A DNA stretch of 64,000 nucleotides from a virus. Under the pieces are notes generated by a model. That model saw only the letters and a program-made list of their open reading frames with translations, did no database searches and was not told the DNA's origin. The position numbers and the translations under genes are program-made. The number at the start of each line of letters is the position of its first letter. The stretch's first letter is position 1. The stretch spans positions 1 to 64,000 of the IMG/VR virus record IMGVR_UViG_3300048818_000143; one strand, written 5' to 3'. Below are positions 1,781 through 44,275 of this stretch, piece by piece.

Positions 1781-1788
1781 GTTAAACC

Positions 1789-19113: not shown

Positions 19114-19640
19114 AGGAGTTCCTTCCTATAATGAAGCTGGCTCAGTTTCCAGCCGCCGCGATCCAGCCCGAGATTTCTTTGACGCCTTATCCAGCCCATG
19201 CGCCCTGAGATATGTTCGATTTGAATGCACCCGCGGTCGAGCGCCAGCCCGTCAATAAGCGGCTCGACGCGCTCGAGCAGCCCCGCTTTTTCGCTGTAGC
19301 CGACCCAGATAAAGAACGTCAGCGGCGCTTGCAGAAACTCGTCGAAGGGATAGGAACTCAGCACGAACCCATCGATCGCGCCGTCCTCATCCATCACCCA
19401 ATGGAGCTCGACCGTGTTCTGGCTCGCGAGGCCCTTGATGATCGCCATCCGTATTTGTTCCGGTATCCAGGTTGCATAGGAGCGAGTCAGGCCGTTGCGC
19501 TTCTGAGCTACCAGCGCTTTCTTCTTGACGATCTCGAGCTTCGATCGCAGCCACGGCCAATGCGCGCGCAAGCCCTCGCCGTCACAACGCTTGAGAATCG
19601 GCAGCTTGACTTCTTGCGTCTGTGTATGACCGTTCTGCAT
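19110..19640 (-). CDS. hypothetical protein (176 aa), possibly acyltransferase-like
   Basis: Start at MQNGHT forms an ATGA overlap with the stop of the upstream membrane-protein gene. Soluble. No firm motif, and a GNAT-like impression only. Confidence 0.5.
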   Translation of the reverse strand: MQNGHTQTQEVKLPILKRCDGEGLRAHWPWLRSKLEIVKKKALVAQKRNGLTRSYATWIPEQIRMAIIKGLASQNTVELHWVMDEDGAIDGFVLSSYPFDEFLQAPLTFFIWVGYSEKAGLLERVEPLIDGLALDRGCIQIEHISGRMGWIRRQRNLGLDRGGWKLSQLHYRKELL

Positions 19641-20863
19641 CACGCCCATCCTAACCCTCGAATCTCCATCGTGAAAGCGACGACTAGGAAAATCGACGCG
19701 ACTATCAGTACTTTGGCAAACTGATCGATAGGTGTCTTAGCGATGAGAGCTACGAAAAACGGGAAGCTCTGAATCCAGTAGCGCGCGCCGAATTGCTCGA
19801 CTCCATTGCTCCAGACCAGCATGCACGCGCCCATCCCGAGGACGATCGCTGACCAAAGTAGGACCATCTCCACGTTCCAGAATTTTGCGCGCAGGGCCAA
19901 AAGCAGCGCTGGACTGGTAGTGAGCAGCGATTGCCCGATCGCCTGCGGCCGGATGAAGGGAACCTGCCAAGTGTAGGCTGGCCCCAGAAAGAGCGCCGTG
20001 TAGATGTTGAGCGGTAGGTAGTGAAGGCTAAAAGGCCCCCACGGGAATCTCTTGCCACCCGCTATATCTTGTGCGTACCAGATCCACATCGTCGGGTCGG
20101 TGAGACCCCCGAACCGCGCCTCGTTGAGAATCGCGTAGATTACCACCCCTAGCGCTACCACCAAAAGATAGTCGACCAAACCTCGATGCTTCCATAGGAG
20201 CCACGCCGCATAGACCGGAAGCACCAGCACGAGGTCGTTGCGCGCGAAGCAAGCGACAACCGCCCAGAGCCCGACATTCAGAGGTCGCGCCTTCCCATAA
20301 AGCTCACTGAGCACCAGGAACGTCGGAATCGTTGAGATTACCGAGCACATCCCCCACGAGGCTCCGTACGTGGCTTCGTAGAAGACTACTGTTCCGAACC
20401 CGAAAAAGAGTGTAAGCCATAGCGCATGGTGATTTTCTTTTGGGTCAGTCTTGCCGTTTGGGCGATTTTCTTCCTCGCCTTCCTGAAGCGAGTTCTCAAC
20501 TGGATGGTCGATACGCTGGCTCATTCGCCAACAAGCCGTCATTGCGAGCGCGCCATAAAAGACCGAAATTAGCGTCTGGTTGTAAAACTTCAGCGCTACG
20601 AAAGGCAGACATAAAAGCGCCGCTAGCGGCGGATGCACCGTGTAAATGAAGCCGCCGATCGTAACGTGCTCCCACGGCTGAAAAGGATTGACGCTCAGAT
20701 GCCCATGGAGCATCGAGTAGGCCAGAACGATATGCTCGTTGTGCTGGCTCGGCGGCCCCATGCAGAGCCAATAGGCGAGTAGCGCCAGCATGAAAATGGC
20801 AGCGGTTTTCAATTTCAGCACGTCCCGCCGGTTAAAAGGCCCGCAGTGAAAATCTCGGTACAC
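19640..20863 (-). CDS. polytopic membrane protein, GT-C-type glycosyltransferase-like (alternatively Wzy/ligase-like)
   Basis: About 400 aa with roughly 9-11 hydrophobic helices. It has an HPPL element after the first loop and a C-terminal GVEQFGARYW element, as in ArnT/PMT-like enzymes. Embedded in the fibre gene block. Alternative GTG start at 20821 (GTGCTGA overlap with the upstream stop). Confidence 0.5.
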   Translation of the reverse strand: MYRDFHCGPFNRRDVLKLKTAAIFMLALLAYWLCMGPPSQHNEHIVLAYSMLHGHLSVNPFQPWEHVTIGGFIYTVHPPLAALLCLPFVALKFYNQTLISVFYGALAMTACWRMSQRIDHPVENSLQEGEEENRPNGKTDPKENHHALWLTLFFGFGTVVFYEATYGASWGMCSVISTIPTFLVLSELYGKARPLNVGLWAVVACFARNDLVLVLPVYAAWLLWKHRGLVDYLLVVALGVVIYAILNEARFGGLTDPTMWIWYAQDIAGGKRFPWGPFSLHYLPLNIYTALFLGPAYTWQVPFIRPQAIGQSLLTTSPALLLALRAKFWNVEMVLLWSAIVLGMGACMLVWSNGVEQFGARYWIQSFPFFVALIAKTPIDQFAKVLIVASIFLVVAFTMEIRGLGWA

Positions 20864-21615: not shown

Positions 21616-21616
21616 C

Positions 21617-27930: not shown

Positions 27931-28440
27931 TTACGGGACGATGACGTAGGTGATCGTGGCGCCAAGCACGTTGTAGCCCTGATAGCAGACATCGATACCC
28001 GGGCTCGCCGCCGCCGCTGGAACCGGTCCATCGACCATCGTGTTGCCCGGTCCGTACATCGCGCCACCGTTGGCTCCGTAAATGCCAAGCTGCGCCTGTC
28101 CGAGCGCCGGTACGACCGACCCGTAGGGGCTGCTCGTCGCACATGGAGTGCCCGCGACCTGCACGCCATAGGAAAGCGTGAGCGCCGGCGTCGCGCCGTT
28201 GCTGTTGAAAGGCTGCGCCACTTCGACGCTACAGATGTAAATCTGCTTGCCTAGCACACCCGGTATCGCGGTGAACGTCGCGCTTGCTCCAGGGGCCGCG
28301 AGGAATTTGCTTCGCTTCGGGTAGATGGCGCATGGGTCCATCGCCGTCTGCGCAAACACAAAACCGGCGAAGCCGAGCATGCACGCGACTACCAGAAGCC
28401 TCGCCAGATTCGCCCGGATCGATCCTTTTTCTGCTTTCAT
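27931..28440 (-). CDS. small secreted Cys-containing protein, paralog family member (169 aa)
   Basis: Start at MKAEKGSIRANLARLLVVACMLGFAGFVFA/QT with a GAAGGA RBS. Paralogous pattern shared with 24880-25368. Confidence 0.6.
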   Translation of the reverse strand: MKAEKGSIRANLARLLVVACMLGFAGFVFAQTAMDPCAIYPKRSKFLAAPGASATFTAIPGVLGKQIYICSVEVAQPFNSNGATPALTLSYGVQVAGTPCATSSPYGSVVPALGQAQLGIYGANGGAMYGPGNTMVDGPVPAAAASPGIDVCYQGYNVLGATITYVIVP

Positions 28441-28457
28441 TTTTCCTTCACCCGCCC

Positions 28458-28835
28458 CTAGAAACTGCACACTGAGACGCTCTGGCTAGAGCAACCCATG
28501 TCGACCGGCACGATGCAGTAGACCGCGCCCGAGGGAACAATCGGATTGGTCTTCGCCGCATGCTCAGTTGGCAAAATCGGCACAGTCGCCGCAGTCGGCA
28601 CCAGCGTTCCTGAATAAATGGTCGCCGCGGTCACGTCTATGTCGCAATAGGCCGGACACGAAGTCCCGCCGACGAAATAGAATAGCGGTCCACGGCCCGT
28701 CCCACCTGCGGCAAAATTGGCCGCCACAAGCTGAGTCGAAGAAGTCGTAATAGTCGCGGTCGAACAGATGGCATGCGCCAGATTCGGCACGGCCAGCATT
28801 ACCGCGAATAGCGCTGCTACTAGGTATTTTCTCAT
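28458..28835 (-). CDS. small secreted Cys-rich protein (125 aa)
   Basis: Signal MRKYLVAALFAVMLAVPNLAHA/IC, with a GGAGG RBS 7 nt upstream. Seven Cys in the mature part. Loosely resembles the two paralogs above. Confidence 0.6.
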   Translation of the reverse strand: MRKYLVAALFAVMLAVPNLAHAICSTATITTSSTQLVAANFAAGGTGRGPLFYFVGGTSCPAYCDIDVTAATIYSGTLVPTAATVPILPTEHAAKTNPIVPSGAVYCIVPVDMGCSSQSVSVCSF

Positions 28836-30765: not shown

Positions 30766-31986
30766 TTAGGTTACGGAAACAAACGTACTCCCTGTAATCA
30801 CGCCGTAGTCGCTGCCGCCGAACTGCGTCTTGCACAGCCCGAAAATCATTCCATTGATGATTCGAAGCTGGTTGTTACCGTCCAGAGGCTCTTCTACCCA
30901 CTTCACTCGCAGCGGATTGTCGGGGGTTCCATCGGCCATTCCGACCGCCAGCGCGATTCCCTGAGCGCCCAGAAACACGAAGCGCCCGATGTTCGCGGTC
31001 GCGTACGAGTAGCTATAGAGACTGTTTGGCGCCGGCACGAGCTGCTTGGTCTGCGGATTCTTGACTTGGTTCGTGGTCGAGGTCAGCCCGTCTCCCCAAG
31101 GGAGGTAGGTGTCCTGATGCAGCACCACGTTGTCGAAAATTCCGAGCGCGCCGGTGAAAAGCGGGTTGCCTTGAATCTGGCCGCCCTGTAGCGCGGCTCG
31201 CATCAAGTCTCCCCACTCCCCCTGCGAGAAATTCTTTTTGAGGTCTTTGACTTGCAGATGATCCAGGAACGCCACACCCGCGATTTCCAGACCATTGATG
31301 ACGACCGGCTTGATAGGAACCGCGAGGTTGCCCTGCGCCATCGCCACCATGTCCGGAATCATGTCCAGATTGAACGCATACTTAGGGTCGGTGCCTACGG
31401 TCGATTCCGTAGTCGCGCCGCCCGGAAATATGACGTGATCGCTCGAAGGCTCGATCGGCGACTGCATTCCGGTGTAGTTGTACGCACCCGCATCGCCCGG
31501 GTTCTGCGCGTTGATCGCGTTATTCAGATACGGAAGCTTGGTCGCTCCGGTATTGCCCGCCGCCTGATTCATCAGCGAGTAGTCGATCATGGTCCGGAAC
31601 CAGTTCGCGAGGCCGTTGCGCGCCTTATCCCTTAGGGAGAAAGGCACCCGCTGCTGCGACATCATGCCCTTGAGGAGCATGGCTTGTCGCAACTGATTGA
31701 TGACCAGCGCTGCCTGATCGTAGGTCAGAGGCACTTCGTTGCCGGCGATAACCGAATCGCCCGCGATGCCAGGGCCGAACGGATTGTAAATCAAGTCGTA
31801 CTTGATCGTGTCTCCGTTCTTCTCCGAGGTCTCCTCGAAGTACTGGACGAAATTGCTCGGGTCGTCTTTCGATAGCCCGACCGCCATCAACTTCGAGGCA
31901 GTCGTGTATCGGATGGCCTGAGCGTAGGTGAGTTCCGAATAAAGGGTGACGGCTGCGGGGTCGCCGGCAACTATGACTGTTTCCAT
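30766..31986 (-). CDS. major capsid protein, N4-gp56-like family (HK97 fold)
   Basis: 406 aa. The N-terminal region (KNGDTIKYDLIYNPFGPGIAGDSVIAGNEVPLTYDQAALVINQLRQA) matches the remembered signature of the N4-gp56 capsid family (GDTI.F.L...L.G.G..GD..L.GNEE.L......V.ID.LR.A). Lies downstream of portal and scaffold. Confidence 0.75.
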   Translation of the reverse strand: METVIVAGDPAAVTLYSELTYAQAIRYTTASKLMAVGLSKDDPSNFVQYFEETSEKNGDTIKYDLIYNPFGPGIAGDSVIAGNEVPLTYDQAALVINQLRQAMLLKGMMSQQRVPFSLRDKARNGLANWFRTMIDYSLMNQAAGNTGATKLPYLNNAINAQNPGDAGAYNYTGMQSPIEPSSDHVIFPGGATTESTVGTDPKYAFNLDMIPDMVAMAQGNLAVPIKPVVINGLEIAGVAFLDHLQVKDLKKNFSQGEWGDLMRAALQGGQIQGNPLFTGALGIFDNVVLHQDTYLPWGDGLTSTTNQVKNPQTKQLVPAPNSLYSYSYATANIGRFVFLGAQGIALAVGMADGTPDNPLRVKWVEEPLDGNNQLRIINGMIFGLCKTQFGGSDYGVITGSTFVSVT

Positions 31987-32175: not shown

Positions 32176-32204
32176 TTGACCCCCGCCCTATTTTCCGTTA
32201 TGAA
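32176..32204 (+). promoter_or_regulatory. putative promoter of the plus-strand glycosylation island
   Basis: TTGACC (32176-32181), 17-nt spacer, then TATGAAAAT (from 32199), followed by AAGGAG and the ATG at 32234. The same architecture occurs at 48448-48479. Confidence 0.4.
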
Positions 32205-32233
32205 AATAGACATCTCGCAAAGGAGCGTCTGAT

Positions 32234-32638
32234 ATGGATCAACCGTGGATAGGGGCAGGAACAGAATTTATTATCATTTTGGTGGTCATGGGCGTGATCG
32301 TCTGGGCGGTCTATGGATATCCCATGTGGCGCGTATGGGCGCAGGAGCGAGCAGGTGCTGCCGATCTCGCGCAGGCTCATATGGAGCAGCAGGTTCAGGT
32401 AGCGCGGGCTAAAGGTCGCCTCGATGCGGCGCAACTCAATAAGCAGGCCGCCATCGTAGAGGCCGAAGCTGTCTCGGAGCAGATCAAGCGCATCGGTGAA
32501 CAACTGACTTCGCACGACCTTTATCTCAAATGGCAGTGGATCAAAATGATGGAAGAGACCGACAACAACGATGTCATCTACGTTCCAACGGAAGCTAATA
32601 TACCGATCCTCGAAGCCACGCGACTGAAGGACCGGTAG
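32234..32638 (+). CDS. membrane-anchored protein with SPFH/band-7-like C-terminal coiled coil (134 aa)
   Basis: N-terminal TM (FIIILVVMGVIVWAVYGYPMW). The following AQAHMEQQVQVARAKG...AAIVEAEAVSEQIKRIGEQL...YLKWQWIKMM...VIYVPTE resembles the C-terminal part of stomatin/HflC-type proteins. The core SPFH domain seems absent. Confidence 0.5.
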   Translation: MDQPWIGAGTEFIIILVVMGVIVWAVYGYPMWRVWAQERAGAADLAQAHMEQQVQVARAKGRLDAAQLNKQAAIVEAEAVSEQIKRIGEQLTSHDLYLKWQWIKMMEETDNNDVIYVPTEANIPILEATRLKDR

Positions 32639-33996
32639 GTGAAACGGATTCTTTTCTGGGCGCTTCTGGCGCATAGCGCCGCTATTTTAGCTATGCGCTG
32701 GAATCAGCCCCTGGTAGGTGAACATGGATTCCGACAAACTCAAACCGCCCTCAGTGTTTTCTGGCTCCTGCGGGGAGGCCCATGGCTGGCTTACTGGACT
32801 CCTGTGCTCGGCCCTCCATGGTCGATCCCGTTTGAATTCCCCCTCTTCCAATGGATCGTTGCCCTGCTCGCACGAATGGGCGTTGGACTCGATCCGGCCG
32901 GACGTTGCGTCGCTTGGGCTTTTGGCGTTCTGGCATTGTTCCCGCTGCGACGAATCGCGACGCACCTCGACATTGATCCGTGGATCGTTGGGTGCCTCTA
33001 CCTTGCCAGTCCTCTCTATCTCTACTGGTCGACAGCGTTCTTAATCGATACGTGCGCGCTGTTTTTGTGCACTGAATTTCTCGCTCTGATGATGGAGGAT
33101 AAGTGGATACTCGGCATGTTCGTTGGCATCTTAGCTGCGCTGGTAAAATTGCCGTCCTTCGTAATTTTTGCTGCTGTGTCGTTGCTGTTGCCGCTGGCAT
33201 CGCATGGACGAACTATACTGATGCCGTTAAGGCCCAAAGTCCTCTAGGGGCACTTCTGACCACCTCGCAGCCGGCGCAGCGCAAGCATAATTTCGGGACG
33301 CTGGAGCAGCGCTTTTCGCCCGCGCTTTGGGATACGATCAAGGAACGGATTCAGGAGATTCTATGATCGCGCTGGTTTGCTTCGGAGCCTTCCTGCTGCC
33401 CTTCTTTCTGTTCCCTACGCTCTATGAAGTACACGCCTACTACTCGGTGGCCTGCGGAGTTTTTCTTATCCTGGCTATCGCTAAAATGTTGACGGAGGAA
33501 TTGTGAAGACTATCGGATTATCCATGGCCGGGTTCATTCTCATCCTTGGCCTTGGACTCGGCGAATGGTGTCTGCTCGCAAGGATGAACTGCGGTTCTTA
33601 TTGGCCTCCGTGTTGCAATTGCCGTGACCCTCTTTTCGAGCATTGGTGGTCTGACAAGATCAAGGATACTCCATGAAGTCCCTGCTTTTCTATCTCCTGA
33701 TCGCCTCGCAGTTGCTGTACTTCTATGCACACTACGACCTGCGCCCGAGCGATGGCGGGATCGTCGCCTTCGCGCGTGATATCCGCGACCACACGAAGCC
33801 GGACGATGTTATTCTGATCTACGGACTCGAATGGAATCCCGAGCTCCCCTACTATGCGGAACGCAAGGCTGTGATGTTTCCGGCCTCGTTGATGACGCCC
33901 GAGCAGATCGCGCGCGCGTCAAAGTGGGCAAATTCTCTCAACGTAGGCGCCGTGGTTCGATGCGCCGACAAAGGCTGTGAGGTCGAATATCGATGA
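32639..33996 (+). pseudogene. GT-C (ArnT/PMT-like) membrane glycosyltransferase split into five consecutive ORFs (decayed or genuinely split gene)
   Basis: The ORFs are 32639-33247 (frame 2; multi-TM, ArnT-like N-terminus), 33103-33366 (frame 1; AWTNYTDAVKAQSPLG loop), 33363-33506 (47 aa, TM), 33503-33676 (57 aa, TM + Cys-rich) and 33673-33996 (TM + DDVILIYGLEWNPELPYYAERK periplasmic tail). The last three junctions are ATGA/GTGA overlaps. The first needs a -1 shift near the T5 run at 33165-33169. Confidence 0.5.
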
Positions 33997-35081
33997 GCAA
34001 CGTCATTATCGTTACGGGGAGTGCGGGACTGATTGGCTCTGCTGCGGTTCGCTTTTTCGCCGAAAAAGGCTTCGATATTGTGGGCGTCGATAACGACATG
34101 CGCGCGCAGTTTTTCGGCGCGGCCGCCAGTACGAGGCCCAACTTGCGACAACTGGCAAGCGAGGTCAAACACTACTTCCACTACAACATCGATATCCGCG
34201 ACCAGCTCGGCGTCGAGGCGCTATTTAGGCGGGGCGACAAAAACATCCATGCGATCGTCCACTGCGCCTCTCAGCCTTCGCACGATTGGGCGGCCTCCGA
34301 CCCGCATACCGACTTCGGGGTGAACGCGGTAGGGACGCTCAATCTGCTGGAAGCGACGCGCCGCTATTGCCCGGAAGCGCCGTTCGTCTTCATGTCGAGC
34401 TCGAAGGTGTACGGGGATACGCCCAACAAAATCATGCTGGAAGAACTAGACACCCGCTTCGACATTCCCCGAGGCGAGACCCAAATTAGCGAAATCGGAC
34501 TTTGGTATTCCGGCGACGGCATCAACGAGCGCATGTCCATCGACCAATCGCTTCATTCCCTCTTCGGAGTTTCGAAACTCAGTGCCGATCTGCTCGTACA
34601 GGAATACGGCCGTTACTTCGGAATGAAAACCGTCTGCTTCCGGCCCGGCTGTCTCACCGGCCCCAACCACGCAGGAGTTGAACAACATGGGTTCCTTTCG
34701 CACTTGGTTAAGTGCGCTGTTTCGGGCGCGCCGTACCGAATCATTGGTTACGGGGGAAAGCAGGTCCGAGATAACATTCACTCTCAAGATGTCGTGTCCG
34801 CGATGTGGGAGTTTATTAGAGCGCCCCGTTCTGGTGTCGTCTACAACCTTGGTGGAGGTCGGCACTCCAACTGTTCAATCCTTGAAGCCATCGCGGACTG
34901 TGAAAGGCTGACCGGCAAGAAGATGGAAACTTCCTACGTCGATACTCCGCGTAAGGGCGATCACAAATTCTGGATTGGCGACCCACGCAAATGGCAAAGT
35001 CATTACCCGAACTGGACCTGGACCTATGATCACGAGCGGTTGATAACTGAGATGGTCGAAGCCGAGCAGGCCGCGAAGTGA
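33993..35081 (+). CDS. NAD-dependent sugar epimerase/dehydratase (extended SDR, CDP-paratose-2-epimerase-like)
   Basis: Rossmann motif VTGSAGLIGS, then MSSSKVYG and the GVSKLSADLLVQEYGRYFGMKTVCFRPGCLTGP block. The expected catalytic Tyr of YxxxK is Phe (F191, nt 34563-34565). ATGA overlap with the upstream ORF. Confidence 0.75.
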   Translation: MSNVIIVTGSAGLIGSAAVRFFAEKGFDIVGVDNDMRAQFFGAAASTRPNLRQLASEVKHYFHYNIDIRDQLGVEALFRRGDKNIHAIVHCASQPSHDWAASDPHTDFGVNAVGTLNLLEATRRYCPEAPFVFMSSSKVYGDTPNKIMLEELDTRFDIPRGETQISEIGLWYSGDGINERMSIDQSLHSLFGVSKLSADLLVQEYGRYFGMKTVCFRPGCLTGPNHAGVEQHGFLSHLVKCAVSGAPYRIIGYGGKQVRDNIHSQDVVSAMWEFIRAPRSGVVYNLGGGRHSNCSILEAIADCERLTGKKMETSYVDTPRKGDHKFWIGDPRKWQSHYPNWTWTYDHERLITEMVEAEQAAK

Positions 35082-35725
35082 AGCTGTCTGTCGTCATACC
35101 CGCGCGGGAAGAAGGAGTAAACGCCGTCATTACGCACGGCAAAATAAAGTCGCTCCTTCTGCGGCGAGATATCGAAAGTGAAATCATAATCTCCCCCGAC
35201 GATGGCGAACCTCACGGCTATGGGCTGGCTGTGCGACGCGGCCTCACACGCTGCACGGGAGACGTAATTGCGATCATGATGGCGGATGGTTCCGACGATC
35301 CCGCCGATCTAGTTCGTTGCTTTCATCGTATCGAAGTCGAAGGTTACGACTGTTGCTTCGGCTCGCGGTGGGACTGGAGCGGTTCTCTTTTATTTAGAGT
35401 AGAGGACTATCCGTGGCCCAAGCTCATCCTGAATCGCCTCGCCAACAAAGCCATCCAGTGGCTCTTCTGGATCGACTACAACGACGTGACCAACGCCTTC
35501 AAGCTCTACCGGCGCGAGGTCATAGAAGCCATCCAGCCGCTCGAAAGCGAGCAATTCGACCTGACTGTCGAGATGCCGCTGAAAGCGATTACTATGGGCT
35601 TCAAGTACGCAGTGATCCCCATCTCATGGACGAATCGAAAGGTAGGAAAAAGTAAATGGCGAATCAGCGAACTTGGAAGCAAATACGTCCGGCGAGTCCT
35701 GCAACTGTGGTGGCGCTCGCTTTAA
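35078..35725 (+). CDS. GT2 polyprenyl-phosphate glycosyltransferase (Dpm1/Ppm1/GtrB/ArnC-like, 215 aa)
   Basis: GTG start in a GTGA overlap. KLSVVIPAREE..., IAIMMADGSDDPADL (DxD-type) and GSRW...NDVTNAFKLYRREV...EMPLKA...IPISWTNRKVGKSKW fit the Dpm1-like GT2 pattern. Confidence 0.7.
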   Translation: MKLSVVIPAREEGVNAVITHGKIKSLLLRRDIESEIIISPDDGEPHGYGLAVRRGLTRCTGDVIAIMMADGSDDPADLVRCFHRIEVEGYDCCFGSRWDWSGSLLFRVEDYPWPKLILNRLANKAIQWLFWIDYNDVTNAFKLYRREVIEAIQPLESEQFDLTVEMPLKAITMGFKYAVIPISWTNRKVGKSKWRISELGSKYVRRVLQLWWRSL

Positions 35726-36000
35726 TAGCGATGCTCGCGATCAGTTGTAAGGCGTCTATTTTCGCCAACCACAACCTCGGCTTCAAAACCTGCATCAAGC
35801 CTACCTCGGAGCCTCTTAAAGAGCCGCGCATCTCTACGCGCGATATGGATCCCGACGATACGGATGCCTGTCTGATTACGGTCGACGTGCCCAAAGATTG
35901 GCACTGCTGGACCGACGAGGCCCACGTTCTCGACGTGAAGGATGCTTACAAGTCTCACATCGGCTGGGTGCATCAGCCGCTCTGCCATCACGGAAAGTAG
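35656..36000 (+). CDS. putative lipoprotein/secreted small protein (114 aa)
   Basis: N-terminus ..ATVVALALIAMLAISC/KAS is lipobox-like, and four further Cys follow. It overlaps the GT2 3' end by 70 nt, so the start is uncertain. Confidence 0.4.
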   Translation: MANQRTWKQIRPASPATVVALALIAMLAISCKASIFANHNLGFKTCIKPTSEPLKEPRISTRDMDPDDTDACLITVDVPKDWHCWTDEAHVLDVKDAYKSHIGWVHQPLCHHGK

Positions 36001-36008
36001 AAAGAGTT

Positions 36009-36044
36009 GCGCCCTGCCGAAAGGGGGGACAAACGGCAGGGCGC
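36009..36044. terminator. strong hairpin between convergent units (11-bp perfect stem)
   Basis: GCGCCCTGCCG (36009-36019), 14-nt loop, then CGGCAGGGCGC (36034-36044), located between the island stop (36000) and the scaffold-like gene stop (36102). There is a T-rich run only on the minus-strand side (AACTCTTTCT). Confidence 0.5.
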
Positions 36045-37374: not shown

Positions 37375-37668
37375 TTACTCTCCGCTTATATTTACGACGC
37401 CCGGTTTGAGGTTCGTCGCTGGTGCCGCGATTGTGAGCGGCTGCGCGTAGTCCGGTAAATAGACTCGAAACGCCGCATACCCCTTTCCGTCCACGCGGAC
37501 CCAAGTTCGCAGGTCGGCGCTTACGCGCTCAGCCAGCCAGTCCCACGATACGCGATCTATTATGACCGTCTCTTTGAGCTGGTCAATTTCTGCCAACGCG
37601 GCAATTAAATCATCGATAGACCGATAGAGCGGCTGCTTTTCGACTTCTTTTTCCGCTACCGCGCTCAT
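37375..37668 (-). CDS. hypothetical protein (97 aa)
   Basis: ORF overlapping the ATP-grasp gene stop by 4 nt. Ordinary composition. Confidence 0.55.
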   Translation of the reverse strand: MSAVAEKEVEKQPLYRSIDDLIAALAEIDQLKETVIIDRVSWDWLAERVSADLRTWVRVDGKGYAAFRVYLPDYAQPLTIAAPATNLKPGVVNISGE

Positions 37669-38990
37669 AGCGAATCTCCCATCTCGGTCACGATGTCCTC
37701 GGGCTCGGGAATTCTACCGCCGAACGCAATGCCGTGTTTGGCGGCTTCTTTCACCGATTCGAGCAGGCTCGCGAACCCCGCCACGTTCGCATGGACGGGC
37801 AGGTCTTTGAGCGCGCCCAGATTCTTTTTCAGATGCGCAATCGCCGCTTCGACCGTGTTTCCGGCGCCGATTACCACGCCAGGCTCGCCGCTCTTGTCCG
37901 GCGCGAATTTATACACCCCGTCGACTTTGCCATAGCGATAGAGTTTCACCCAGCGCTCGACATTCTTCGGAATTCGCAGCGTGCGCCATTCTTTTACGAT
38001 CGAATCATGCTTCGCGCCGCCGTCAAAATGCAGCGTCGCTTCGACCGCAAACCGCCACCTAAACTCGGGCGGTATCACGATCCCGTTCGCGCCGTACCAG
38101 ATCACCTCCGCGAAGTTCGTGCAAGTCTCAAGCTGATGCTCTCCGGTCTGTCCGGGCATCCGCGGCGTCGGGTCGATGAAATAGGGCACGCCGTCTTTGA
38201 TACGAATCTCAGTCGCCCACCAGCCCCGATAACCAAAACTCTTGAGCACCGGAGCCATCTTCTCGTTGACGATCTTGATTTCGTCGGGTAGGTCATCTGC
38301 GCTGAGTTCGGATCCTAAGTAGAGCTCGTTCTTTTTCTCGTAGCCCTGAAACGACGACGGTGGGTATTGCCCATCGATGCACCAGCCATCGTAACCGATT
38401 TCCAAGTCGGACTTGAGGTTGTCCTGCACGACGAAAATAACGATTTCCTTGGCGCCGCCGAAAATGACGGCGAGGTCGTCCAGGTAGTCTTCGCTGTGCT
38501 CGTAGTCGAGATGGTGCCAGGTCTCCATGTTCGCGCGGAACGCGTTAATTTTGATCCACTTGTTCTCGACTTTCTTGAGATGCGCGCGCAGCGCCGTGAG
38601 CCCCAGAATCGTTTCCGAGTGGACCGTCTCCAGCCCCACGCTTTCGAGCACTTCTAAAAATTGGTCCCGATAGAGCTCGAGGCTGGTCGCGCCCATGTGC
38701 CCCCACACGGCTTTCCCGATCCTGCGCAAATGCCGCTGCATGTCGCCGTAGCCGATGTCGGGAAACACAAAGAGGTCGACGTTATCGAGGACTTTGGGGT
38801 TCAGGAATTCGTCGATCTTCTCAACGTTGTCGAGGCCGTAGCCGCGCATGAAGTCCGAGATGTCACGGTATTCAGCCTCGCACGGCGAGTAGTAGTAGAC
38901 CTTCTTACACGTCTCCGCGAGCTTTTCAGCGACGCTTATAAACGTGCCGTAGTCGACCACGCAGGCCGTCACTTCTTCGACCGACTTCAT
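37665..38990 (-). CDS. ATP-grasp fold enzyme (441 aa)
   Basis: The C-terminal half (FGYRGWWATEIRIKDGVPYFIDPTPRMPGQTGEH) matches the ATP-grasp pattern G..G....E.....G.PY.IE...R.GG. The preceding KWIKINAFRANMETWH... fits the central domain. It overlaps the portal stop by 4 nt. Confidence 0.6.
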   Translation of the reverse strand: MKSVEEVTACVVDYGTFISVAEKLAETCKKVYYYSPCEAEYRDISDFMRGYGLDNVEKIDEFLNPKVLDNVDLFVFPDIGYGDMQRHLRRIGKAVWGHMGATSLELYRDQFLEVLESVGLETVHSETILGLTALRAHLKKVENKWIKINAFRANMETWHHLDYEHSEDYLDDLAVIFGGAKEIVIFVVQDNLKSDLEIGYDGWCIDGQYPPSSFQGYEKKNELYLGSELSADDLPDEIKIVNEKMAPVLKSFGYRGWWATEIRIKDGVPYFIDPTPRMPGQTGEHQLETCTNFAEVIWYGANGIVIPPEFRWRFAVEATLHFDGGAKHDSIVKEWRTLRIPKNVERWVKLYRYGKVDGVYKFAPDKSGEPGVVIGAGNTVEAAIAHLKKNLGALKDLPVHANVAGFASLLESVKEAAKHGIAFGGRIPEPEDIVTEMGDSL

Positions 38991-41176
38991 TGATCCTTGC
39001 CACCGCCGCCTTTATCGACTGGTTGCCGCATCGTGTCCCAGATATCGGTCGCTTGCGTAGCCATGTCCATCGCGTGTTGGCCTTGATCCATCCCGTGCTG
39101 GCCTTGCGCGCGCTTTTCCTCGCGCGACTTCGTAAGCCCGTCCATGATGAGCTTGAGCATGTCGGTGCCGCTCTGACCGGACAGTCGCTTCGCCTTCGCC
39201 ATTTCGAGCTCGGCGCGAGCGTTCTTTTCTGCGACTTCCGCCTGAATCTGGATCGGCCCCTTCTGCTGGCCCCGACCGCCCGGCACCGGCAACCCAGCCT
39301 CGCGCAGTTTCGCCATCTGCTGCGCTTCGTCGGTCATGGCTTTTTCGATCGCCATCGCCCAGGTCCGCGGTATCGGCAGCGCGCGCACGAACATTGGCAG
39401 GAACTTGTTCATCCGGAGTAGCGTCTGTCCGAACGGTCCGAGCAGGAGATCCGCTAGGTACTGCTTCATGTTCGGATCGCGCTCGGCTTCATCGAGCGAA
39501 ATTTCATACTCCAGCGAGAAAGGCGCGTCCTCGAGTTTGATCACCTCGCCTTCCTGTGAAGCCGGGCCACCCACCCGAATCAGCCGCGAGTCGGAAATGA
39601 GCTGAAGGTGATCGTAAACGATCATCCCCTCTTCCTGGCGCCAGTCCTCTTCGGCGTCGAACTCGGCCGCGAGCAGGACCATCCCCGCGCGCTGCTTGCG
39701 CTTGAGAGTCACGCCGGATGTGCCGCTCCCGCCTAGCCCGAGCGTCTCCGCGTTGATGCCTGTGATAGTATCGCCCATCGCCGAGATGACGAACTGCATG
39801 ATCGCCATCGCAGCGGCGGGCACTTCCGGCTGCTGCTTGGGAATAATTTTCTTGTTCTGAATCGCGCCGTCGCCAACGACGTTGATAGAGCCTGTCATCG
39901 AAGCGGTATCGATAAAGTCCTGGAGCTGCGCCTTATCGTCGAATGCTGTTACTTCTGCGAGGTAGCCGCCCTTGGCCTGCTTCGCGAAACTCTCCAGCAT
40001 CTGGTTGAAAAACTTGTTGATGTAGCGGTTCGGGTCGAGCATCACCTTCGCGAATCCGTAAGCCAGCTTCGATTCCTCGTCGAAGTGACAGCAAACCGGA
40101 TTGAAGGTGAAGCGCGAGCCAGGCAGATGCTCCGGCGCTTCCATCAAAAAGCGCCGATTCAGTACGAACGCATGCTTGTAGTGCCTGCCTATCTGTCTAT
40201 CGAAGTGCTCGATTTCGAGGTCGAATAAGTTTTGGAGGCGGGTTTCGTACTCGCGAAACTCCCCTTCATCCATGAATTGCTCGGTATTATCCAGCGGATC
40301 TTCGAAGACGTAGCCCGCCTGGTTGTCCCACCATTCGAACTCGAGCAGCCGCGACTGGTCTTTCTTCCCAACGCTATTGGCCTTGAGTTTGTCCAGCGGG
40401 TAACTCTGCACGTAGGGGATTTTGTACGGGACGCGATCGACTGACGGCCAGCTCAGCGCCTTGCCCTCGGCGCTCGCATAGTCGATCAGAAAATGCGCGT
40501 CTTTCGAAGGGAACAGCGCCTTGATTTCCTCGTTCTCAATCCACGCCTCTCGCGCGCGCCACCGGCAATGCTCGGCGTCCAAGTTAATTTCCGCGCACCC
40601 GTCCGGCCACAACATCTCCATCGGATCGATGCGGTCGTAACCCACGAGGCCGCGAGGGTCTTTCGCCCGGGAGATGAAGCACTTCGTCCACCCCATTCCC
40701 GTGATCAGAAAGTCGTTAAAAGCGCGGCTTCGCTTATTGTTCGCGTGGGACATTTTCGTGGCCCACTCGAAGTATTTCTGGACGCGATCGCCGAAAAGCT
40801 GCGCCTGGTCGTTATCCATGCTCACGGCGTTGAACAGGAGCGCCAAATACGAATCGCGTTGCACGCCCGAGATGTAACGAATGAATTTCTGAGTCGTGTT
40901 GAATGCGTTGTGCGGGCGTCGCTGCTCTTTCAGCACCCGCTCGTCTTCATCTGAGAGCTGGCGTCCCGCGATGAAGCGCTGGCACTCGCGTCCGTCCGTG
41001 CGCCATTTGTTGCACTTGGGCTCGGCTTTCTGGACTTGGCGCAGTATCCACGGCAGCTTCGGATGCCCCATGAGACCGACCGCACCCGCTGGCTCCGAGC
41101 CCGTATCGGTGAAGCGCGGGACCGGGATGGTCGCGATGTCTCGGGTACTTTCGTTGAAAAGATTTTCTACCGCCAC
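38987..41176 (-). CDS. portal protein (729 aa)
   Basis: Size, position immediately downstream of the large terminase, and an acidic/helical C-terminus. Consistent with N4-like portals by length. Confidence 0.75.
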   Translation of the reverse strand: MAVENLFNESTRDIATIPVPRFTDTGSEPAGAVGLMGHPKLPWILRQVQKAEPKCNKWRTDGRECQRFIAGRQLSDEDERVLKEQRRPHNAFNTTQKFIRYISGVQRDSYLALLFNAVSMDNDQAQLFGDRVQKYFEWATKMSHANNKRSRAFNDFLITGMGWTKCFISRAKDPRGLVGYDRIDPMEMLWPDGCAEINLDAEHCRWRAREAWIENEEIKALFPSKDAHFLIDYASAEGKALSWPSVDRVPYKIPYVQSYPLDKLKANSVGKKDQSRLLEFEWWDNQAGYVFEDPLDNTEQFMDEGEFREYETRLQNLFDLEIEHFDRQIGRHYKHAFVLNRRFLMEAPEHLPGSRFTFNPVCCHFDEESKLAYGFAKVMLDPNRYINKFFNQMLESFAKQAKGGYLAEVTAFDDKAQLQDFIDTASMTGSINVVGDGAIQNKKIIPKQQPEVPAAAMAIMQFVISAMGDTITGINAETLGLGGSGTSGVTLKRKQRAGMVLLAAEFDAEEDWRQEEGMIVYDHLQLISDSRLIRVGGPASQEGEVIKLEDAPFSLEYEISLDEAERDPNMKQYLADLLLGPFGQTLLRMNKFLPMFVRALPIPRTWAMAIEKAMTDEAQQMAKLREAGLPVPGGRGQQKGPIQIQAEVAEKNARAELEMAKAKRLSGQSGTDMLKLIMDGLTKSREEKRAQGQHGMDQGQHAMDMATQATDIWDTMRQPVDKGGGGKDQ

Positions 41177-44121: not shown

Positions 44122-44194
44122 AGCTGGCGGCGGGAATCGAACTCGCGACCTCTGGTTTACGAAACCAATGCTCTACCGTCTGAGCTACACCAGC
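44122..44194 (-). tRNA. tRNA-Thr (anticodon CGT)
   Basis: The reverse complement GCTGGTGTAGCTCAGACGGTAGAGCATTGGTTTCGTAAACCAGAGGTCGCGAGTTCGATTCCCGCCGCCAGCT folds by hand into a cloverleaf. It has a 7-bp acceptor stem, GCTC/GAGC D-stem, anticodon loop TTCGTAA, and a TTCGATT T-loop with one mismatch in the T-stem. Confidence 0.85.
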
Positions 44195-44203
44195 ATAAGT
44201 TAG

Positions 44204-44275
44204 ATGCGCCGGTGGGATTTGAACCCACGATCTTCTGGTTATGAGCCAAATGAGATGCCACTTCTCCACGGCGCG
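44204..44275 (-). tRNA. tRNA-Met (anticodon CAT) with bacterial initiator (fMet) hallmarks
   Basis: The reverse complement is CGCGCCGTGGAGAAGTGGCATCTCATTTGGCTCATAACCAGAAGATCGTGGGTTCAAATCCCACCGGCGCAT. It shows a C1xA72 mismatch, an A11:U24 pair, a CUCAUAA loop and a GGTTCAAATCC T-arm, closely echoing E. coli tRNA-fMet. Only two of the three G:C pairs at the bottom of the anticodon stem are present. No encoded CCA. Confidence 0.8.

What the first reader, a model, noticed from the sequence alone, without database searches (positions are those of the whole stretch)
32176..36044. Self-contained plus-strand glycosylation insertion between scaffold and capsid genes, plus a second GT-C-like gene among the fibres
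A translationally coupled operon runs opposite to the surrounding structural genes. It is bracketed by a promoter-like element (TTGACC-17-TATGAAAAT) and an 11-bp-stem hairpin. It encodes:
- a Dpm1/Ppm1/GtrB/ArnC-like GT2 (35078-35725)
- an extended-SDR sugar epimerase-like enzyme (33993-35081)
- a GT-C (ArnT/PMT-like) membrane transferase, split (32639-33996)
- an SPFH-tail membrane protein
- a lipoprotein-like ORF

An apparently intact, GT-C-like polytopic protein (19640-20863) sits inside the fibre block.

The pairing of a GT2 polyprenyl-phosphate-sugar synthase with a periplasmic GT-C transferase follows a known logic. It is seen in phage Gtr seroconversion cassettes, in Arn lipid A modification, and in actinobacterial Ppm1/Pmt protein O-mannosylation of Sec-exported Pro/Thr-rich proteins.

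The same genome encodes many signal-peptide proteins with PT linkers. This raises the untested possibility that the phage glycosylates its own exported proteins, rather than (or in addition to) remodelling host surface glycans for superinfection exclusion.
Basis: partly seen in the sequence, partly recalled or inferred. Interest (0 to 1): 0.8.

Follow-up and report, generated by a model that had tools for sequence, protein, structure and literature searches.

The report
Phage envelope-glycosylation operon, split GT-C enzyme
An uncultured soil phage carries, between its scaffold and capsid genes, a backwards-facing operon for adding sugars outside the cytoplasm, and its membrane transferase is encoded in several separately translated pieces that evolution has kept intact, which is unusual for this enzyme class.

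Summary
A tightly coupled plus-strand operon (32234-36000) lies between the minus-strand capsid and scaffold-like genes.

It encodes:
- a stomatin-like small membrane protein;
- a GT-C transferase in pieces;
- a tyvelose-epimerase-like SDR;
- a Dpm1/ArnC/GtrB-type GT2;
- a Cys-rich lipoprotein.

The 407-aa protein at 19640-20863 is a second, unrelated GT-C-fold enzyme.

New findings:
1. SDR, GT2 and GT-C derive from a widespread, apparently uncharacterised bacterial cassette.
2. The split is real. The same sequence appears in two other assemblies.
3. The split is probably not decay. The N|mid break is shared with two other diverged phage lineages. Each internal piece has its own Shine-Dalgarno sequence and start codon. 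dN/dS is about 0.2-0.3 while synonymous sites are saturated.
4. The second GT-C is found with cassette genes in four lineages. In two it lies next to them.
5. Neither GT-C family occurs in deposited phage genomes.

Most likely function: Gtr/Arn-style periplasmic glycosylation from a polyprenyl-phosphate sugar. The acceptor is unknown. A host envelope glycan is the default. Phage-encoded exported PT-rich proteins have only weak circumstantial support.

Verdict: a new variant of a known kind, interest 0.62.

The parts
32176..32207 (+). Promoter-like string TTGACC-17-TATGAAAAT upstream of the operon
   Evidence: Read directly in the sequence. Not scored by the sigma-70 scan, and the region shows no excess over shuffles. 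The host sigma factor is unknown, so this is weak.
32234..32638 (+). 134-aa single-pass membrane protein, stomatin/SPFH-tail-like; first gene of the operon
   Evidence: phrog_11227, E 9e-35, full length. tblastn finds 62 phage records, several annotated stomatin-like protein or membrane protease subunit. No Pfam Band_7 hit. One N-terminal TM helix. SD AAGGAG upstream.
32639..33247 (+). GT-C piece N (202 aa): TM1, the first periplasmic loop with the family's invariant H-x-FRQTQTA and PWSIPFEFP motifs, and following TM helices up to the equivalent of P0002 helix 219-243
   Evidence: 47-52% identical to the N-terminal halves of intact homologues. Invariant motifs retained. 64% identical to the L089 N piece, dN/dS 0.21. 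The L089 piece ends at the same helix.
33103..33366 (+). GT-C piece 'mid' (87 aa, GTG start, frame -1 relative to N, overlapping N by 145 nt): basic N-terminus, one TM, and a periplasmic segment with the conserved NFGT..QRF motif
   Evidence: Aligns to P0001 residues 417-477. GGAGGA lies 3-4 nt upstream of the GTG. Separate ORFs with starts at the equivalent position exist in L089 (ATG plus AAGGAGG) and L005. pN 0.39-0.45 against pS 0.71-0.76.
33363..33506 (+). GT-C piece C1 (47 aa from ATG 33363): two TM helices flanking the conserved periplasmic LY.VH.YY motif
   Evidence: Its ATG overlaps the mid stop codon (ATGA), with AGGAG 5 nt upstream. Aligns to P0001 residues 512-547. dN/dS 0.30 against L089. 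The TM helix that precedes it in intact homologues (P0002 about 319-344) is absent here and in L089 but present in L005.
33503..33676 (+). 57-aa ORF (one TM plus a Cys-rich tail) in a roughly 163-nt segment with no counterpart in intact GT-C homologues
   Evidence: The insertion is seen relative to homologues. GTGA and ATGA overlaps with its neighbours, and GGAGGA upstream. L005 has an unrelated 70-aa membrane ORF at the same place. L089 has none. Function unknown.
33673..33996 (+). GT-C piece C2 (107 aa): last TM helix plus the C-terminal periplasmic alpha/beta domain
   Evidence: Aligns to P0001 residues 564-661. 64% identical to the L005 piece (dN/dS 0.21) and 43% to L089 (0.31). AAGGA upstream.
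33993..35081 (+). 362-aa extended SDR, CDP-tyvelose-2-epimerase-like, with Phe in place of the catalytic Tyr (HSLFGVSK)
   Evidence: PF01370, E 4e-40. Best solved relatives are CDP-tyvelose 2-epimerases 9rl0 and 1orr, E 1e-30 and 5e-27. Phe is present at this position in all 16 full-length cassette orthologues and in 100 of 108 scorable representatives. 71% identical to L089, dN/dS 0.18.
35078..35725 (+). 215-aa GT2 of the polyprenyl-phosphate glycosyltransferase (Dpm1/ArnC/GtrB) type, a compact variant lacking about 25 residues after the DDG motif
   Evidence: PF00535, E 2e-8. phrog_841 'GtrB-like', E 2e-16. The only PDB sequence hits are DPMS 5mlz and ArnC 9hwj. The deletion is shared with L089 and absent from the 16 intact cassette orthologues. 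pN 0.29 against pS 0.78.
35656..36000 (+). 114-aa lipoprotein (lipobox LAIS|C) with four further conserved Cys; last gene of the operon, overlapping the GT2 end by 70 nt
   Evidence: Homologues in L005 (139 aa) and L095 (134 aa) share invariant C31, C46, C72, C84 and C110. They are always on the strand opposite the structural genes.
36009..36044 (.). Perfect 11-bp stem-loop between the convergent operon and the scaffold-like gene
   Evidence: Inverted repeat I22. dG -25.4 kcal/mol, z -4.0 on the plus strand and -6.1 on the minus strand. No canonical U-tract.
19640..20863 (-). 407-aa intact second GT-C-fold membrane protein of a rare family without a Pfam model
   Evidence: AF2 pLDDT 91.6. The top PDB fold matches are ALG12, ArnT, PIG-U, PimE and ALG3. 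E65 in the first periplasmic loop is D/E in 98% of the family; R208, R250, D256 and R361 are conserved. Found with cassette genes in the window, L001, L005 and L089.

Best explanation
This is a phage accessory ('moron') module for extracytoplasmic glycosylation. It works on the logic of the Gtr, Arn and other three-component systems.

Inferred pathway:
1. In the cytoplasm, the tyvelose-epimerase-like SDR tailors a nucleotide sugar, or possibly the lipid-linked sugar.
2. The compact Dpm1/ArnC/GtrB-type GT2 transfers that sugar to undecaprenyl phosphate.
3. The lipid-linked sugar is flipped, presumably by a host flippase, since none was found in the phage.
4. In the periplasm the sugar is transferred to an acceptor by GT-C enzymes.

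There are two GT-C enzymes:
- An ArnT/STT3-like GT-C of the 'FRQTQTA' family. In this phage it is made as separately translated membrane pieces (N, mid, C1, C2, plus an extra 57-aa ORF) that are inferred to reassemble in the membrane.
- A compact 407-aa GT-C of a second, rare family found mostly on phage-like contigs. It is encoded in the fibre block here, but lies next to the cassette in two related phages.

The stomatin-like protein and the Cys-rich lipoprotein travel with the operon.

The acceptor is not known. By precedent the most likely one is a host envelope glycan or lipid (O-antigen, LPS core or lipid A, or another surface polymer). Modifying it would alter the phage's own receptor landscape, giving superinfection exclusion or preventing readsorption.

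What is shown: the folds, the family placements, the conserved split architecture and purifying selection. What is inferred: donor lipid, sugar identity, reassembly of the pieces, flipping and the acceptor.
For: Family placement of the soluble enzymes.
- GT2 clade.
- SDR.

GT-C identity of the split gene.
- 514 homologues; the fragments cover 95-99% of intact proteins of about 520 aa.
- Invariant loop motifs are kept in the N piece.
- An AF2 model of the intact homologue P0002 (pLDDT 91.8) matches STT3, ArnT (TM-score 0.58), PglB, AglB, DPY19 and AftA.

Functional linkage of GT2 and GT-C.
- They are one polypeptide in P0001/L001.
- SDR, GT2 and GT-C lie within 6 kb of each other in about 16 of 80 bacterial species loci, usually with a second, canonical SDR.

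The split is real.
- The island is 100% identical over 4301 bp in Logan SRR35912848.
- It is 99.95% identical, with no gaps, over 2151 bp in an ENA contig whose name (k141_...) suggests a MEGAHIT assembly.

The split is conserved and selected.
- The N|mid break is shared with L089 and L005. In L089, SDR and GT2 lie between N and mid, so the two cannot be one polypeptide.
- The mid|C1 break is shared with L089. The C1|ORF|C2 arrangement is shared with L005.
- dN/dS is 0.21-0.31 for N, C1 and C2, and 0.26 for mid against L005 (not computable against L089). pS is 0.65-0.78, the same range as the intact SDR, GT2 and 407-aa genes.
- An SD-like motif lies 3-7 nt upstream of each of the four internal start codons. 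The background density is 5 per kb.
- Break points fall between predicted helices. Each piece begins with a basic N-terminus followed by a TM helix, so topology is preserved (inference).

Second GT-C.
-.
- Convergent and adjacent to the cassette in L001 and L005, and on the same contig in L089.
Against: - No GtrA, SMR or MATE-like flippase candidate turned up in a crude hydropathy scan of the window.
- The SDR lacks the canonical catalytic Tyr.
- The GT2 lacks about 25 residues of the GT-A core and has MAD instead of DAD at the metal-binding motif.
- I know of no characterised GT-C that works as separate polypeptides. One TM helix is missing in this lineage, and an unrelated ORF is inserted.
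- No integrase was found among the ten genes of the 41-63 kb region that were searched. Lysogenic seroconversion, the classical setting, is therefore not established.
- Most relatives of the 407-aa family have no cassette within 10 kb.
- The host is unknown, so whether it has LPS is unknown.
Confidence: 0.55

Rival explanations
1. Decaying remnant. The FRQTQTA-type GT-C is a dead gene in this phage. Only the SDR and GT2 remain active, and they supply lipid-linked sugar to the intact 407-aa GT-C or to host GT-Cs. The fragments persist only as spacers that keep translational coupling.
For: - Relative to intact homologues there are three frame changes, loss of about 26-34 residues including a TM helix, and a roughly 163-nt insertion.
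- There is no precedent for a split GT-C.
- An intact second GT-C is available.
- The GT2 is itself a deletion variant.
Against: - Fragments are 43-64% identical at the protein level to those of L089 and L005, while synonymous sites are saturated. dN/dS is 0.2-0.3, no higher than about 0.3 where computable and comparable to the intact SDR at 0.18. Neutral decay would give pN close to pS and frequent stop codons.
- The same break points recur in diverged lineages, and the gene order around them differs.
- Every internal piece has its own SD motif and start codon.
- The GT2 deletion is likewise shared and under selection.
Confidence: 0.2
2. Self-glycosylation. The GT-C enzymes O-glycosylate phage-encoded, Sec-exported proteins with Pro/Thr-rich linkers, as Ppm1/Pmt does in actinobacteria, rather than host glycans, or in addition to them.
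For: - About nine window ORFs have Sec-like signal peptides. Two of these (1244-1804 and the 1551-aa ORF 3635-8290) also have PT-rich stretches.
- The three genes directly upstream of the 407-aa GT-C are all signal-peptide proteins.
- The same pattern is seen in L004 and L005. In L089 a signal-peptide protein with a PT linker follows the GT-C C piece. In L003 a (PT)n-repeat ORF lies about 400 nt upstream of the GT-C.
- Upstream neighbours of the family are signal-peptide-like in 9 of 29 loci, against 47 of 462 in the background, p about 0.001.
- Fold matches include the protein-modifying enzymes STT3, PglB, Pmt and DPY19.
Against: - The signal-peptide and PT calls come from a crude hydropathy heuristic. 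One of the nine positives is the GT-C's own N-terminus.
- Most family members have no such neighbour.
- The upstream exported proteins are not homologous between close relatives.
- The best overall structural match is ArnT, a lipid A transferase.
- No sequence similarity to GT39 reaches significance.
Confidence: 0.17
3. Not envelope glycosylation. The GT2 acts as an ordinary cytoplasmic Leloir transferase, for example on virion proteins or another soluble acceptor, and the membrane proteins have unrelated roles.
For: - The GT2 scores below the NCBIfam cut-offs.
- It lacks the canonical DxD motif and part of the fold.
- The operon sits among head genes.
Against: - Every significant GT2 match is to polyprenyl-phosphate transferases.
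- The GT2 is fused to the GT-C in P0001 and linked to it in about 16 bacterial loci.
- Both membrane proteins have GT-C folds with conserved loop acidic or motif residues.
Confidence: 0.05

Closest known systems
Phage Gtr seroconversion cassettes (GtrA-GtrB-GtrC of Salmonella P22-like and Shigella Sf phages)
   Same: Both are phage-borne. A GtrB-like GT2 (phrog_841) is predicted to load a sugar on undecaprenyl phosphate, paired with a polytopic membrane transferase acting outside the cytoplasm. Both are accessory genes, not needed for virion building.
   Different: - No GtrA-type flippase candidate found.
- An SDR sugar-tailoring enzyme is included.
- There are two GT-C enzymes, from families absent in 50,697 deposited phage records.
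- One of them is split into cistrons.
- The module sits between the scaffold-like and capsid genes rather than by an integrase, and no integrase was seen among the genes searched.
Arn lipid A modification (ArnC GT2 plus ArnT GT-C) and related lipid A/core systems (Rhizobium RgtE/RgtA-D with the LpsL epimerase; from my own knowledge)
   Same: A GT2 related to ArnC (PDB 9hwj). ArnT gives the highest TM-score among solved structures for the FRQTQTA family (0.58/0.58). An SDR prepares the sugar.
   Different: - No sequence-level similarity to ArnT, even with a profile.
- No formyltransferase, aminotransferase or deformylase genes.
- The SDR resembles a tyvelose epimerase, not ArnA, and lacks the catalytic Tyr.
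Three-component pentofuranose side-chain systems with an auxiliary SDR epimerase (Kelly et al. 2024, PMC11127046)
   Same: A lipid-linked donor synthase, a GT-C and an auxiliary SDR that determines which sugar is added. That paper says its authors know of no other epimerases in O-polysaccharide side-chain glycosylation systems.
   Different: - The donor synthase here is a GT2, not a PRPP-dependent polyprenyl phosphoribose synthase.
- No MATE flippase candidate found.
- The SDR lacks the YxxxK Tyr that ORF13 retains.
Bacterial SDR(Tyr)-SDR(Phe)-GT2-GT-C cassette found here in Binataceae, Microcystis, Oryzomonas, Oligoflexia and others; I found no characterisation of it, though I did not search the literature for it specifically
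   Same: It is the direct source. The SDR is 50-57% identical and the GT2 42-57%; gene order in L001 is the same. The Tyr-to-Phe SDR trait is shared.
   Different: - The phages dropped the canonical second SDR.
- Window and L089 carry a GT2 with a 25-residue deletion.
- Window, L089 and L005 carry the GT-C as separate cistrons.
- A stomatin-like protein, a lipoprotein and a second GT-C have been added.
Actinobacterial Ppm1/Pmt protein O-mannosylation
   Same: A polyprenyl-phosphate sugar synthase plus a GT-C, in a genome with Sec-exported Pro/Thr-rich proteins. Pmt structures appear among the fold matches.
   Different: - Pmt matches are partial (TM-score about 0.34) and rank below STT3 and ArnT.
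- A few intact homologues carry precomputed PMT_2 or PMT hits; neither window GT-C (the N piece or the 407-aa protein) has one.
- Nothing suggests an actinobacterial host.

Membership tests
GT-C fold glycosyltransferases (407-aa protein, 19640-20863) | Polytopic membrane protein whose fold matches solved GT-C enzymes | tested here: met
   AF2 pLDDT 91.6, pTM 0.91. The top Foldseek PDB matches are ALG12, ArnT, PIG-U, PimE and ALG3, probability 1.0, TM-score 0.4-0.55.
GT-C fold glycosyltransferases (407-aa protein, 19640-20863) | Conserved acidic residue in the first extracytoplasmic loop | tested here: met
   E65 is D/E in 98% of 55 family members. D256 is D/E in 100%. R208 and R361 are invariant.
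GT-C fold glycosyltransferases (407-aa protein, 19640-20863) | Sequence membership of a described GT-C family (Pfam or NCBIfam model) | tested here: not met
   No Pfam, NCBIfam or PHROG hit. No tblastn match in INPHARED.
GT-C fold glycosyltransferases (407-aa protein, 19640-20863) | Uses a polyprenyl-phosphate-linked sugar donor | not testable with these tools
   Only genomic linkage to a PP-GT2 in the window, L001 and L089. GT2 was not visible in L005 because the contig ends.
GT-C 'FRQTQTA' family (split gene, 32639-33996) | Homology along the full length of intact family members | tested here: met
   Concatenated pieces cover 95-99% of proteins of about 520 aa at 30-34% identity, E down to 8e-64. 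Per-piece tblastn.
GT-C 'FRQTQTA' family (split gene, 32639-33996) | Family fold is GT-C | tested here: met
   The model of intact homologue P0002 (pLDDT 91.8) matches STT3, ArnT, PglB, AglB, DPY19, AftA and AftD with E 1e-7 to 1e-5. The profile search against PDB sequences found nothing.
GT-C 'FRQTQTA' family (split gene, 32639-33996) | Invariant first-loop motifs (H-x-FRQTQTA, PWSIPFEFP) | tested here: met
   All are present in the window N piece.
GT-C 'FRQTQTA' family (split gene, 32639-33996) | Single contiguous polypeptide with the full set of TM helices | tested here: not met
   Four cistrons in three frames. About 26-34 residues (one TM helix) are missing, and a 57-aa ORF is inserted.
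Polyprenyl-phosphate GT2 (Dpm1/GtrB/ArnC type) | GT2 domain with closest relatives among polyprenyl-phosphate transferases | tested here: met
   PF00535. PDB sequence hits are only DPMS 5mlz (3e-6) and ArnC 9hwj (1e-3). phrog_841 GtrB-like, 2e-16.
Polyprenyl-phosphate GT2 (Dpm1/GtrB/ArnC type) | Reaches a curated equivalog cut-off | tested here: not met
   The best NCBIfam score is 35 bits against cut-offs of 325-529.
Polyprenyl-phosphate GT2 (Dpm1/GtrB/ArnC type) | Canonical DxD metal motif and a complete GT-A core | tested here: not met
   MAD replaces DAD, family-wide. The 25 residues after DDG are deleted in the window and L089 only.
Gtr-type three-component seroconversion cassette | Dedicated small flippase (GtrA or SMR-like) | tested here: not met
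   A crude hydropathy scan (ORFs of at least 70 aa with two or more predicted TM helices) found no small polytopic candidate beyond the GT-C genes.
Gtr-type three-component seroconversion cassette | Carried by a temperate phage near the integration module | tested here: inconclusive
   The operon lies between the scaffold-like and capsid genes. No integrase was found among ten genes of the 41-63 kb region searched. Two assemblies of about 65.1-65.2 kb suggest a free, complete genome.
Extended SDR, CDP-tyvelose/paratose 2-epimerase | NAD-binding GxxGxxG and best similarity to TyvE | tested here: met
   GSAGLIGS is present. 9rl0 and 1orr are the top hits.
Extended SDR, CDP-tyvelose/paratose 2-epimerase | Ser/Thr-Tyr-Lys catalytic triad (YxxxK) | tested here: not met
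   FGVSK aligns with YGCSK of TyvE. Phe is family-wide.
SPFH/Band 7 (134-aa protein) | Match to the Band_7 domain model | tested here: not met
   No Pfam Band_7 hit. Only the phage family phrog_11227 matches.
Bacterial lipoprotein (114-aa ORF) | Signal peptide with a lipobox Cys, conserved in homologues | tested here: met
   LAIS|C follows a basic n-region and a hydrophobic core. The Cys is invariant in three lineages.

The most novel reading that the evidence does not exclude
A GT-C glycosyltransferase that functions as a non-covalent assembly of three or four separately translated membrane polypeptides. The arrangement has been kept by selection in several phage lineages and works alongside a second GT-C family found mostly on phage-like contigs. 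A further, less likely extension is that the acceptors are the phage's own Sec-exported Pro/Thr-rich proteins, which would mean a tailed phage running a periplasmic protein-glycosylation pathway for its own products.
Probability: 0.4. Interest if true: 0.78.

Novelty: new variant of a known kind. Interest (0 to 1): 0.62.

Why it matters
Phage-encoded surface glycosylation is a classic driver of serotype change and phage resistance. Known examples are few and come mostly from enterobacterial temperate phages.

This case extends the principle in several ways:
- It occurs in an uncultured soil podovirus-like phage.
- It uses two GT-C families not seen in deposited phage genomes.
- It ties them to a widespread bacterial cassette for which I found no characterisation. 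That cassette has an unusual Tyr-to-Phe SDR.
- It offers a natural 'split' GT-C.

If the pieces do reassemble, they mark permissive break points in a fold that is hard to study. They would be a useful handle for dissecting GT-C domain function and for enzyme engineering.

The association with exported PT-rich proteins also makes one question directly testable: do phages glycosylate their own secreted proteins?

Tried and rejected
- DNA similarity of the island to INPHARED phages: none.
- Paralogy of the two GT-C genes: rejected. BLASTP shows no meaningful alignment.
- Assembly or sequencing error as the cause of the split: rejected. The same sequence appears in two other assemblies. Two of the three lesions, a roughly 70-nt deletion and a roughly 163-nt insertion, are too large to be homopolymer indels.
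- The 163-nt insertion as a repeat or mobile element: no other copy in the window or in the fetched loci.
- Homology between the inserted 57-aa ORF and the 70-aa ORF at the same place in L005: none.
- Programmed frameshifting to fuse N and mid: rejected. The last TM helix of N and the TM helix of mid are encoded by overlapping nucleotides in different frames. In L089, SDR and GT2 lie between them.
- Profile search of the FRQTQTA family against PDB sequences: nothing. Only fold comparison worked.
- IMG/VR scans:
  - GT2: none.
  - 407-aa protein: none.
  - FRQTQTA family: one locus, at a contig end.
  - The scan with the full 407-family alignment could not run for lack of a conserved stretch.
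- Neighbour clustering around the 407-aa family was too noisy, because of spurious ORFs in GC-rich DNA, to name a conserved partner.
- PADLOC defence models: no hits.
- Pfam on tail-block and replication-side genes gave almost nothing.
- Host identity and phage lifestyle remain unresolved. Cluster look-up returned no organism names.

Full report
**Setting**

The window is almost the whole genome of an uncultured tailed phage.
- It has a P22-type portal (38987-41176) and a Phage_capsid_3 major capsid protein (30766-31986).
- It has no DNA match in 50,697 deposited phage records, and its capsid is at most 36% identical to any of them.
- The same SDR protein lies on contigs of 65,218 and 65,121 bp from different data sets, so the genome is probably complete at about 65 kb.
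- Relatives come largely from JGI metagenomes that I recognise as soil samples.
- The host is unknown.

Yes. ORFs on the plus strand from 32234 to 36000 abut or overlap at every junction. They lie between the minus-strand capsid gene and a 422-aa Pro/Ala-rich protein. That protein sits where a scaffold gene would be, but it has no family hit.

- Family searches confirm an extended SDR (PF01370, E 4e-40) and a GT2 (PF00535, E 2e-8).
- The 11-bp hairpin at 36009-36044 is exact and stable (dG -25.4 kcal/mol, z -4 to -6). It has no U-tract.
- The promoter-like string is present as written. A sigma-70 scan does not score it, and the region has no excess of such sites.

**The GT2**

Its only relatives among solved structures, by sequence, are Pyrococcus Dol-P-Man synthase (5mlz, E 3e-6) and ArnC (9hwj, E 1e-3). 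PHROGs places it in 'GtrB-like O-antigen conversion' (E 2e-16). The best NCBIfam hits are Dol-P-hexose transferase, AglJ, PgfS and ArnC, all far below cut-off.

Two oddities stand out.
- The whole orthologous group has MAD where relatives have DAD.
- The window's protein lacks about 25 residues after the DDG motif. All 16 intact bacterial and phage orthologues examined keep them.

The deletion is not damage peculiar to this genome. The phage on L089 has the same deletion at 61% identity, with pN 0.29 against pS 0.78.

**The SDR**

Its closest solved relatives are CDP-tyvelose 2-epimerases (E 1e-30), and JGI names it CDP-paratose 2-epimerase. The catalytic Tyr of YxxxK is Phe (HSLFGVSK).

This is a family trait. 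All 16 full-length cassette orthologues have Phe, as do 100 of 108 scorable representatives from a search of 1.84 billion proteins. In bacteria the Phe-type SDR usually sits beside a second SDR with a normal Tyr.

Members are fused to GT11, GT2, WecG and methyltransferase domains. The family therefore belongs to sugar-nucleotide or glycan pathways, but the reaction is unknown. From memory, sugar SDRs such as CapE and PseB also lack the canonical Tyr, so loss of Tyr need not mean loss of activity. That is a lead, not a test.

**The split GT-C: identity**

- Joined in order, the fragments hit 514 proteins of about 510-540 aa at 30-34% identity over 95-99% of their length.
- The family has an invariant H-x-FRQTQTA and PWSIPFEFP signature in the first loop. 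The window's N piece keeps it.
- A profile of the family finds nothing in PDB by sequence.
- An AlphaFold model of the intact homologue P0002 (pLDDT 91.8) matches STT3, ArnT (TM-score 0.58 both ways), PglB, AglB, DPY19, AftA and AftD.
- The family occurs in 389 bacterial species genomes.
- In about 16 of the 80 loci fetched it lies within 6 kb of close orthologues of the window's SDR (50-57% identical) and GT2 (42-57%).
- On L001, a contig carrying phage-like genes, the GT2 and the GT-C are a single 689-aa protein.

These facts tie the three genes into one pathway.

**The split GT-C: decay or design?**

Relative to intact homologues the window shows:
- a frame change near 33160-33190;
- loss of about 26-34 residues (one TM helix) at about 33343-33375;
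- an insertion of about 163 nt at 33483-33693.

At first sight this is a pseudogene. Four lines of evidence argue otherwise.

1. The sequence is not an assembly artefact. A Logan contig is 100% identical over 4301 bp. An ENA contig whose name (k141_...) suggests a MEGAHIT assembly is 99.95% identical, with no gaps, over 2151 bp.
2. The breaks are shared with diverged phages.
   - In L089 (SDR 71% identical, GT2 61%), the N piece ends at the same helix and is followed by SDR and GT2.
   - After GT2 come an 80-aa 'mid' ORF with its own ATG and Shine-Dalgarno sequence, ending ...IKDVL* where the window has ...IQEIL*, and then the C part.
   - In L005, N and mid are again in different frames. Mid and C1 form one ORF that keeps the TM helix missing here. 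A 70-aa membrane ORF separates C1 from C2, as the 57-aa ORF does here.
3. The pieces are under purifying selection.
   - dN/dS is 0.21 for N, 0.30 for C1 and 0.21-0.31 for C2.
   - For mid it is 0.26 against L005; it cannot be computed against L089.
   - Synonymous differences are saturated (pS 0.65-0.78). These values match those of the intact SDR, GT2 and 407-aa genes.
4. Each internal piece has its own translation signals.
   - Upstream motifs are GGAGGA (mid), AGGAG (C1), GGAGGA (57-aa ORF) and AAGGA (C2), 3-7 nt before the start codon.
   - The background density of such motifs is 5 per kb.
   - Stop and start codons overlap as ATGA or GTGA.

A frameshift fusion of N and mid is excluded. 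The last TM helix of N and the TM helix of mid are encoded by overlapping nucleotides in different frames.

Mapped onto the P0002 model, the breaks fall between helices. N ends after helix 219-243. Mid is helix 248-277 plus the periplasmic loop. C1 is helices 343-394. C2 runs from helix 398 to the end. Each piece starts with basic residues followed by a TM helix, so the topology of every piece is preserved. This last step is inference.

I conclude that the GT-C is most likely made as several polypeptides that reassemble. I found no precedent for this, and reassembly itself is not shown.

**The second GT-C (19640-20863)**

- It has no Pfam, NCBIfam or PHROG hit.
- It has only 68 relatives among 5.8 billion protein clusters.
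- It has no match in deposited phages.
- It shows no similarity to the split gene.
- Its model (pLDDT 91.6) matches ALG12, ArnT, PIG-U, PimE and ALG3.
- The family has an acidic residue in the first periplasmic loop (E65, D/E in 98%) and conserved R208, R250, D256 and R361.

In L001 and L005 this gene lies just downstream of the scaffold-position genes and converges on the cassette. In L095 (capsid 76% identical) it lies just upstream of the capsid gene, with the lipoprotein and an HNH-like gene but no cassette. In L089 it is on the same contig as the cassette. The two GT-Cs therefore look like parts of one accessory module. In this phage that module is divided between the head-gene slot and the fibre block. 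Most other family members have no cassette within 10 kb, so the family can probably also use host-made donors.

**Other operon genes**

- The 134-aa protein belongs to phrog_11227 (E 9e-35). That family occurs in 62 phage records, some annotated stomatin-like.
- The 114-aa ORF is a genuine lipoprotein. It has homologues in L005 and L095 and five invariant Cys.
- A crude hydropathy scan found no flippase candidate.
- There are no defence-system hits.

**Mechanism and acceptor**

The best-supported model has four steps:
1. cytoplasmic sugar tailoring;
2. transfer to undecaprenyl phosphate by the GT2;
3. flipping by a host protein;
4. periplasmic transfer by the two GT-Cs.

The acceptor cannot be read from sequence. 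A host envelope glycan or lipid is the default, by analogy with the Gtr and Arn systems. The co-travelling lipoprotein fits a surface-modification or exclusion role.

It has circumstantial support.
- Signal-peptide proteins lie directly upstream of the 407-aa gene here and in L004 and L005.
- L003 has a (PT)n-repeat ORF about 400 nt upstream, without a predicted signal peptide.
- Such neighbours are enriched by a crude measure: 9 of 29 against 47 of 462.

The heuristic is rough. Most family members lack such neighbours. The exported proteins are not homologous between close relatives.

**Comparison with known systems**

The module works like a Gtr or Arn three-component system. It resembles the recently described systems with an auxiliary SDR (PMC11127046). 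It is not a member of any of them:
- no flippase candidate was found;
- the donor synthase is a variant GT2;
- the SDR lacks Tyr;
- the GT-Cs belong to undescribed families;
- one GT-C is split.

**Verdict**

This is a new variant of a known kind.

Noticed in passing
window 1244-1804, 1789-3696, 3635-8290, 20815-21699, 21617-22387, 22384-24024, 27931-28470 (all minus strand): Many ORFs in the tail and structural block carry Sec-type signal peptides. They include a 1551-aa protein with a canonical A-x-A cleavage site and a long PT-rich linker. This is odd for proteins of a tailed phage that assembles in the cytoplasm. None has a Pfam hit.
   Followed up: partly
window 33503-33676; L005 12357-12569: An extra small membrane ORF sits between GT-C pieces C1 and C2 in two lineages, but the two ORFs are unrelated in sequence. 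Both keep stop/start overlaps with their neighbours. Function unknown.
   Followed up: partly
window 33993-35081 and bacterial loci L009-L087: A large SDR subfamily (679 representative clusters at E<=1e-30) resembles tyvelose epimerase but has Phe in place of the catalytic Tyr. In bacteria it is usually next to a canonical-Tyr paralogue, and some members are fused to GT11, GT2, WecG or methyltransferase domains.
   Followed up: partly
window 37665-38990 (minus strand): A 441-aa protein between the portal and scaffold-like genes is conserved in L001, L005 and L130 at about 30% identity. It has no Pfam or PHROG hit.
   Followed up: no
window 44122-44194 and 44203-44275 (minus strand): Two adjacent tRNA genes: tRNA-Thr(CGT) and tRNA-Met(CAT).
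   Followed up: no
L095 2484-3233 (minus strand): An HNH-like 249-aa ORF lies between the lipoprotein and the capsid gene in a relative whose capsid is 76% identical. This marks the stretch upstream of the capsid gene as a variable insertion site.
   Followed up: no
L003 9555-10714: In the closest long relative (ENA contig, 80% identical), the 407-aa GT-C homologue is called as two ORFs of 154 and 237 aa. This could be a real frameshift or a long-read assembly error; it was not resolved.
   Followed up: no
window 19110-19649 (minus strand): A 179-aa ORF overlapping the end of the 407-aa GT-C is conserved downstream of it in L003, L004 and L094 (57-100% identical). It has no family hit.
   Followed up: no
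window 24012-24872 (minus strand): A 286-aa ORF with a collagen-like triple-helix repeat (Pfam E 1.5e-5, just below cut-off), as seen in some phage fibre proteins.
   Followed up: no
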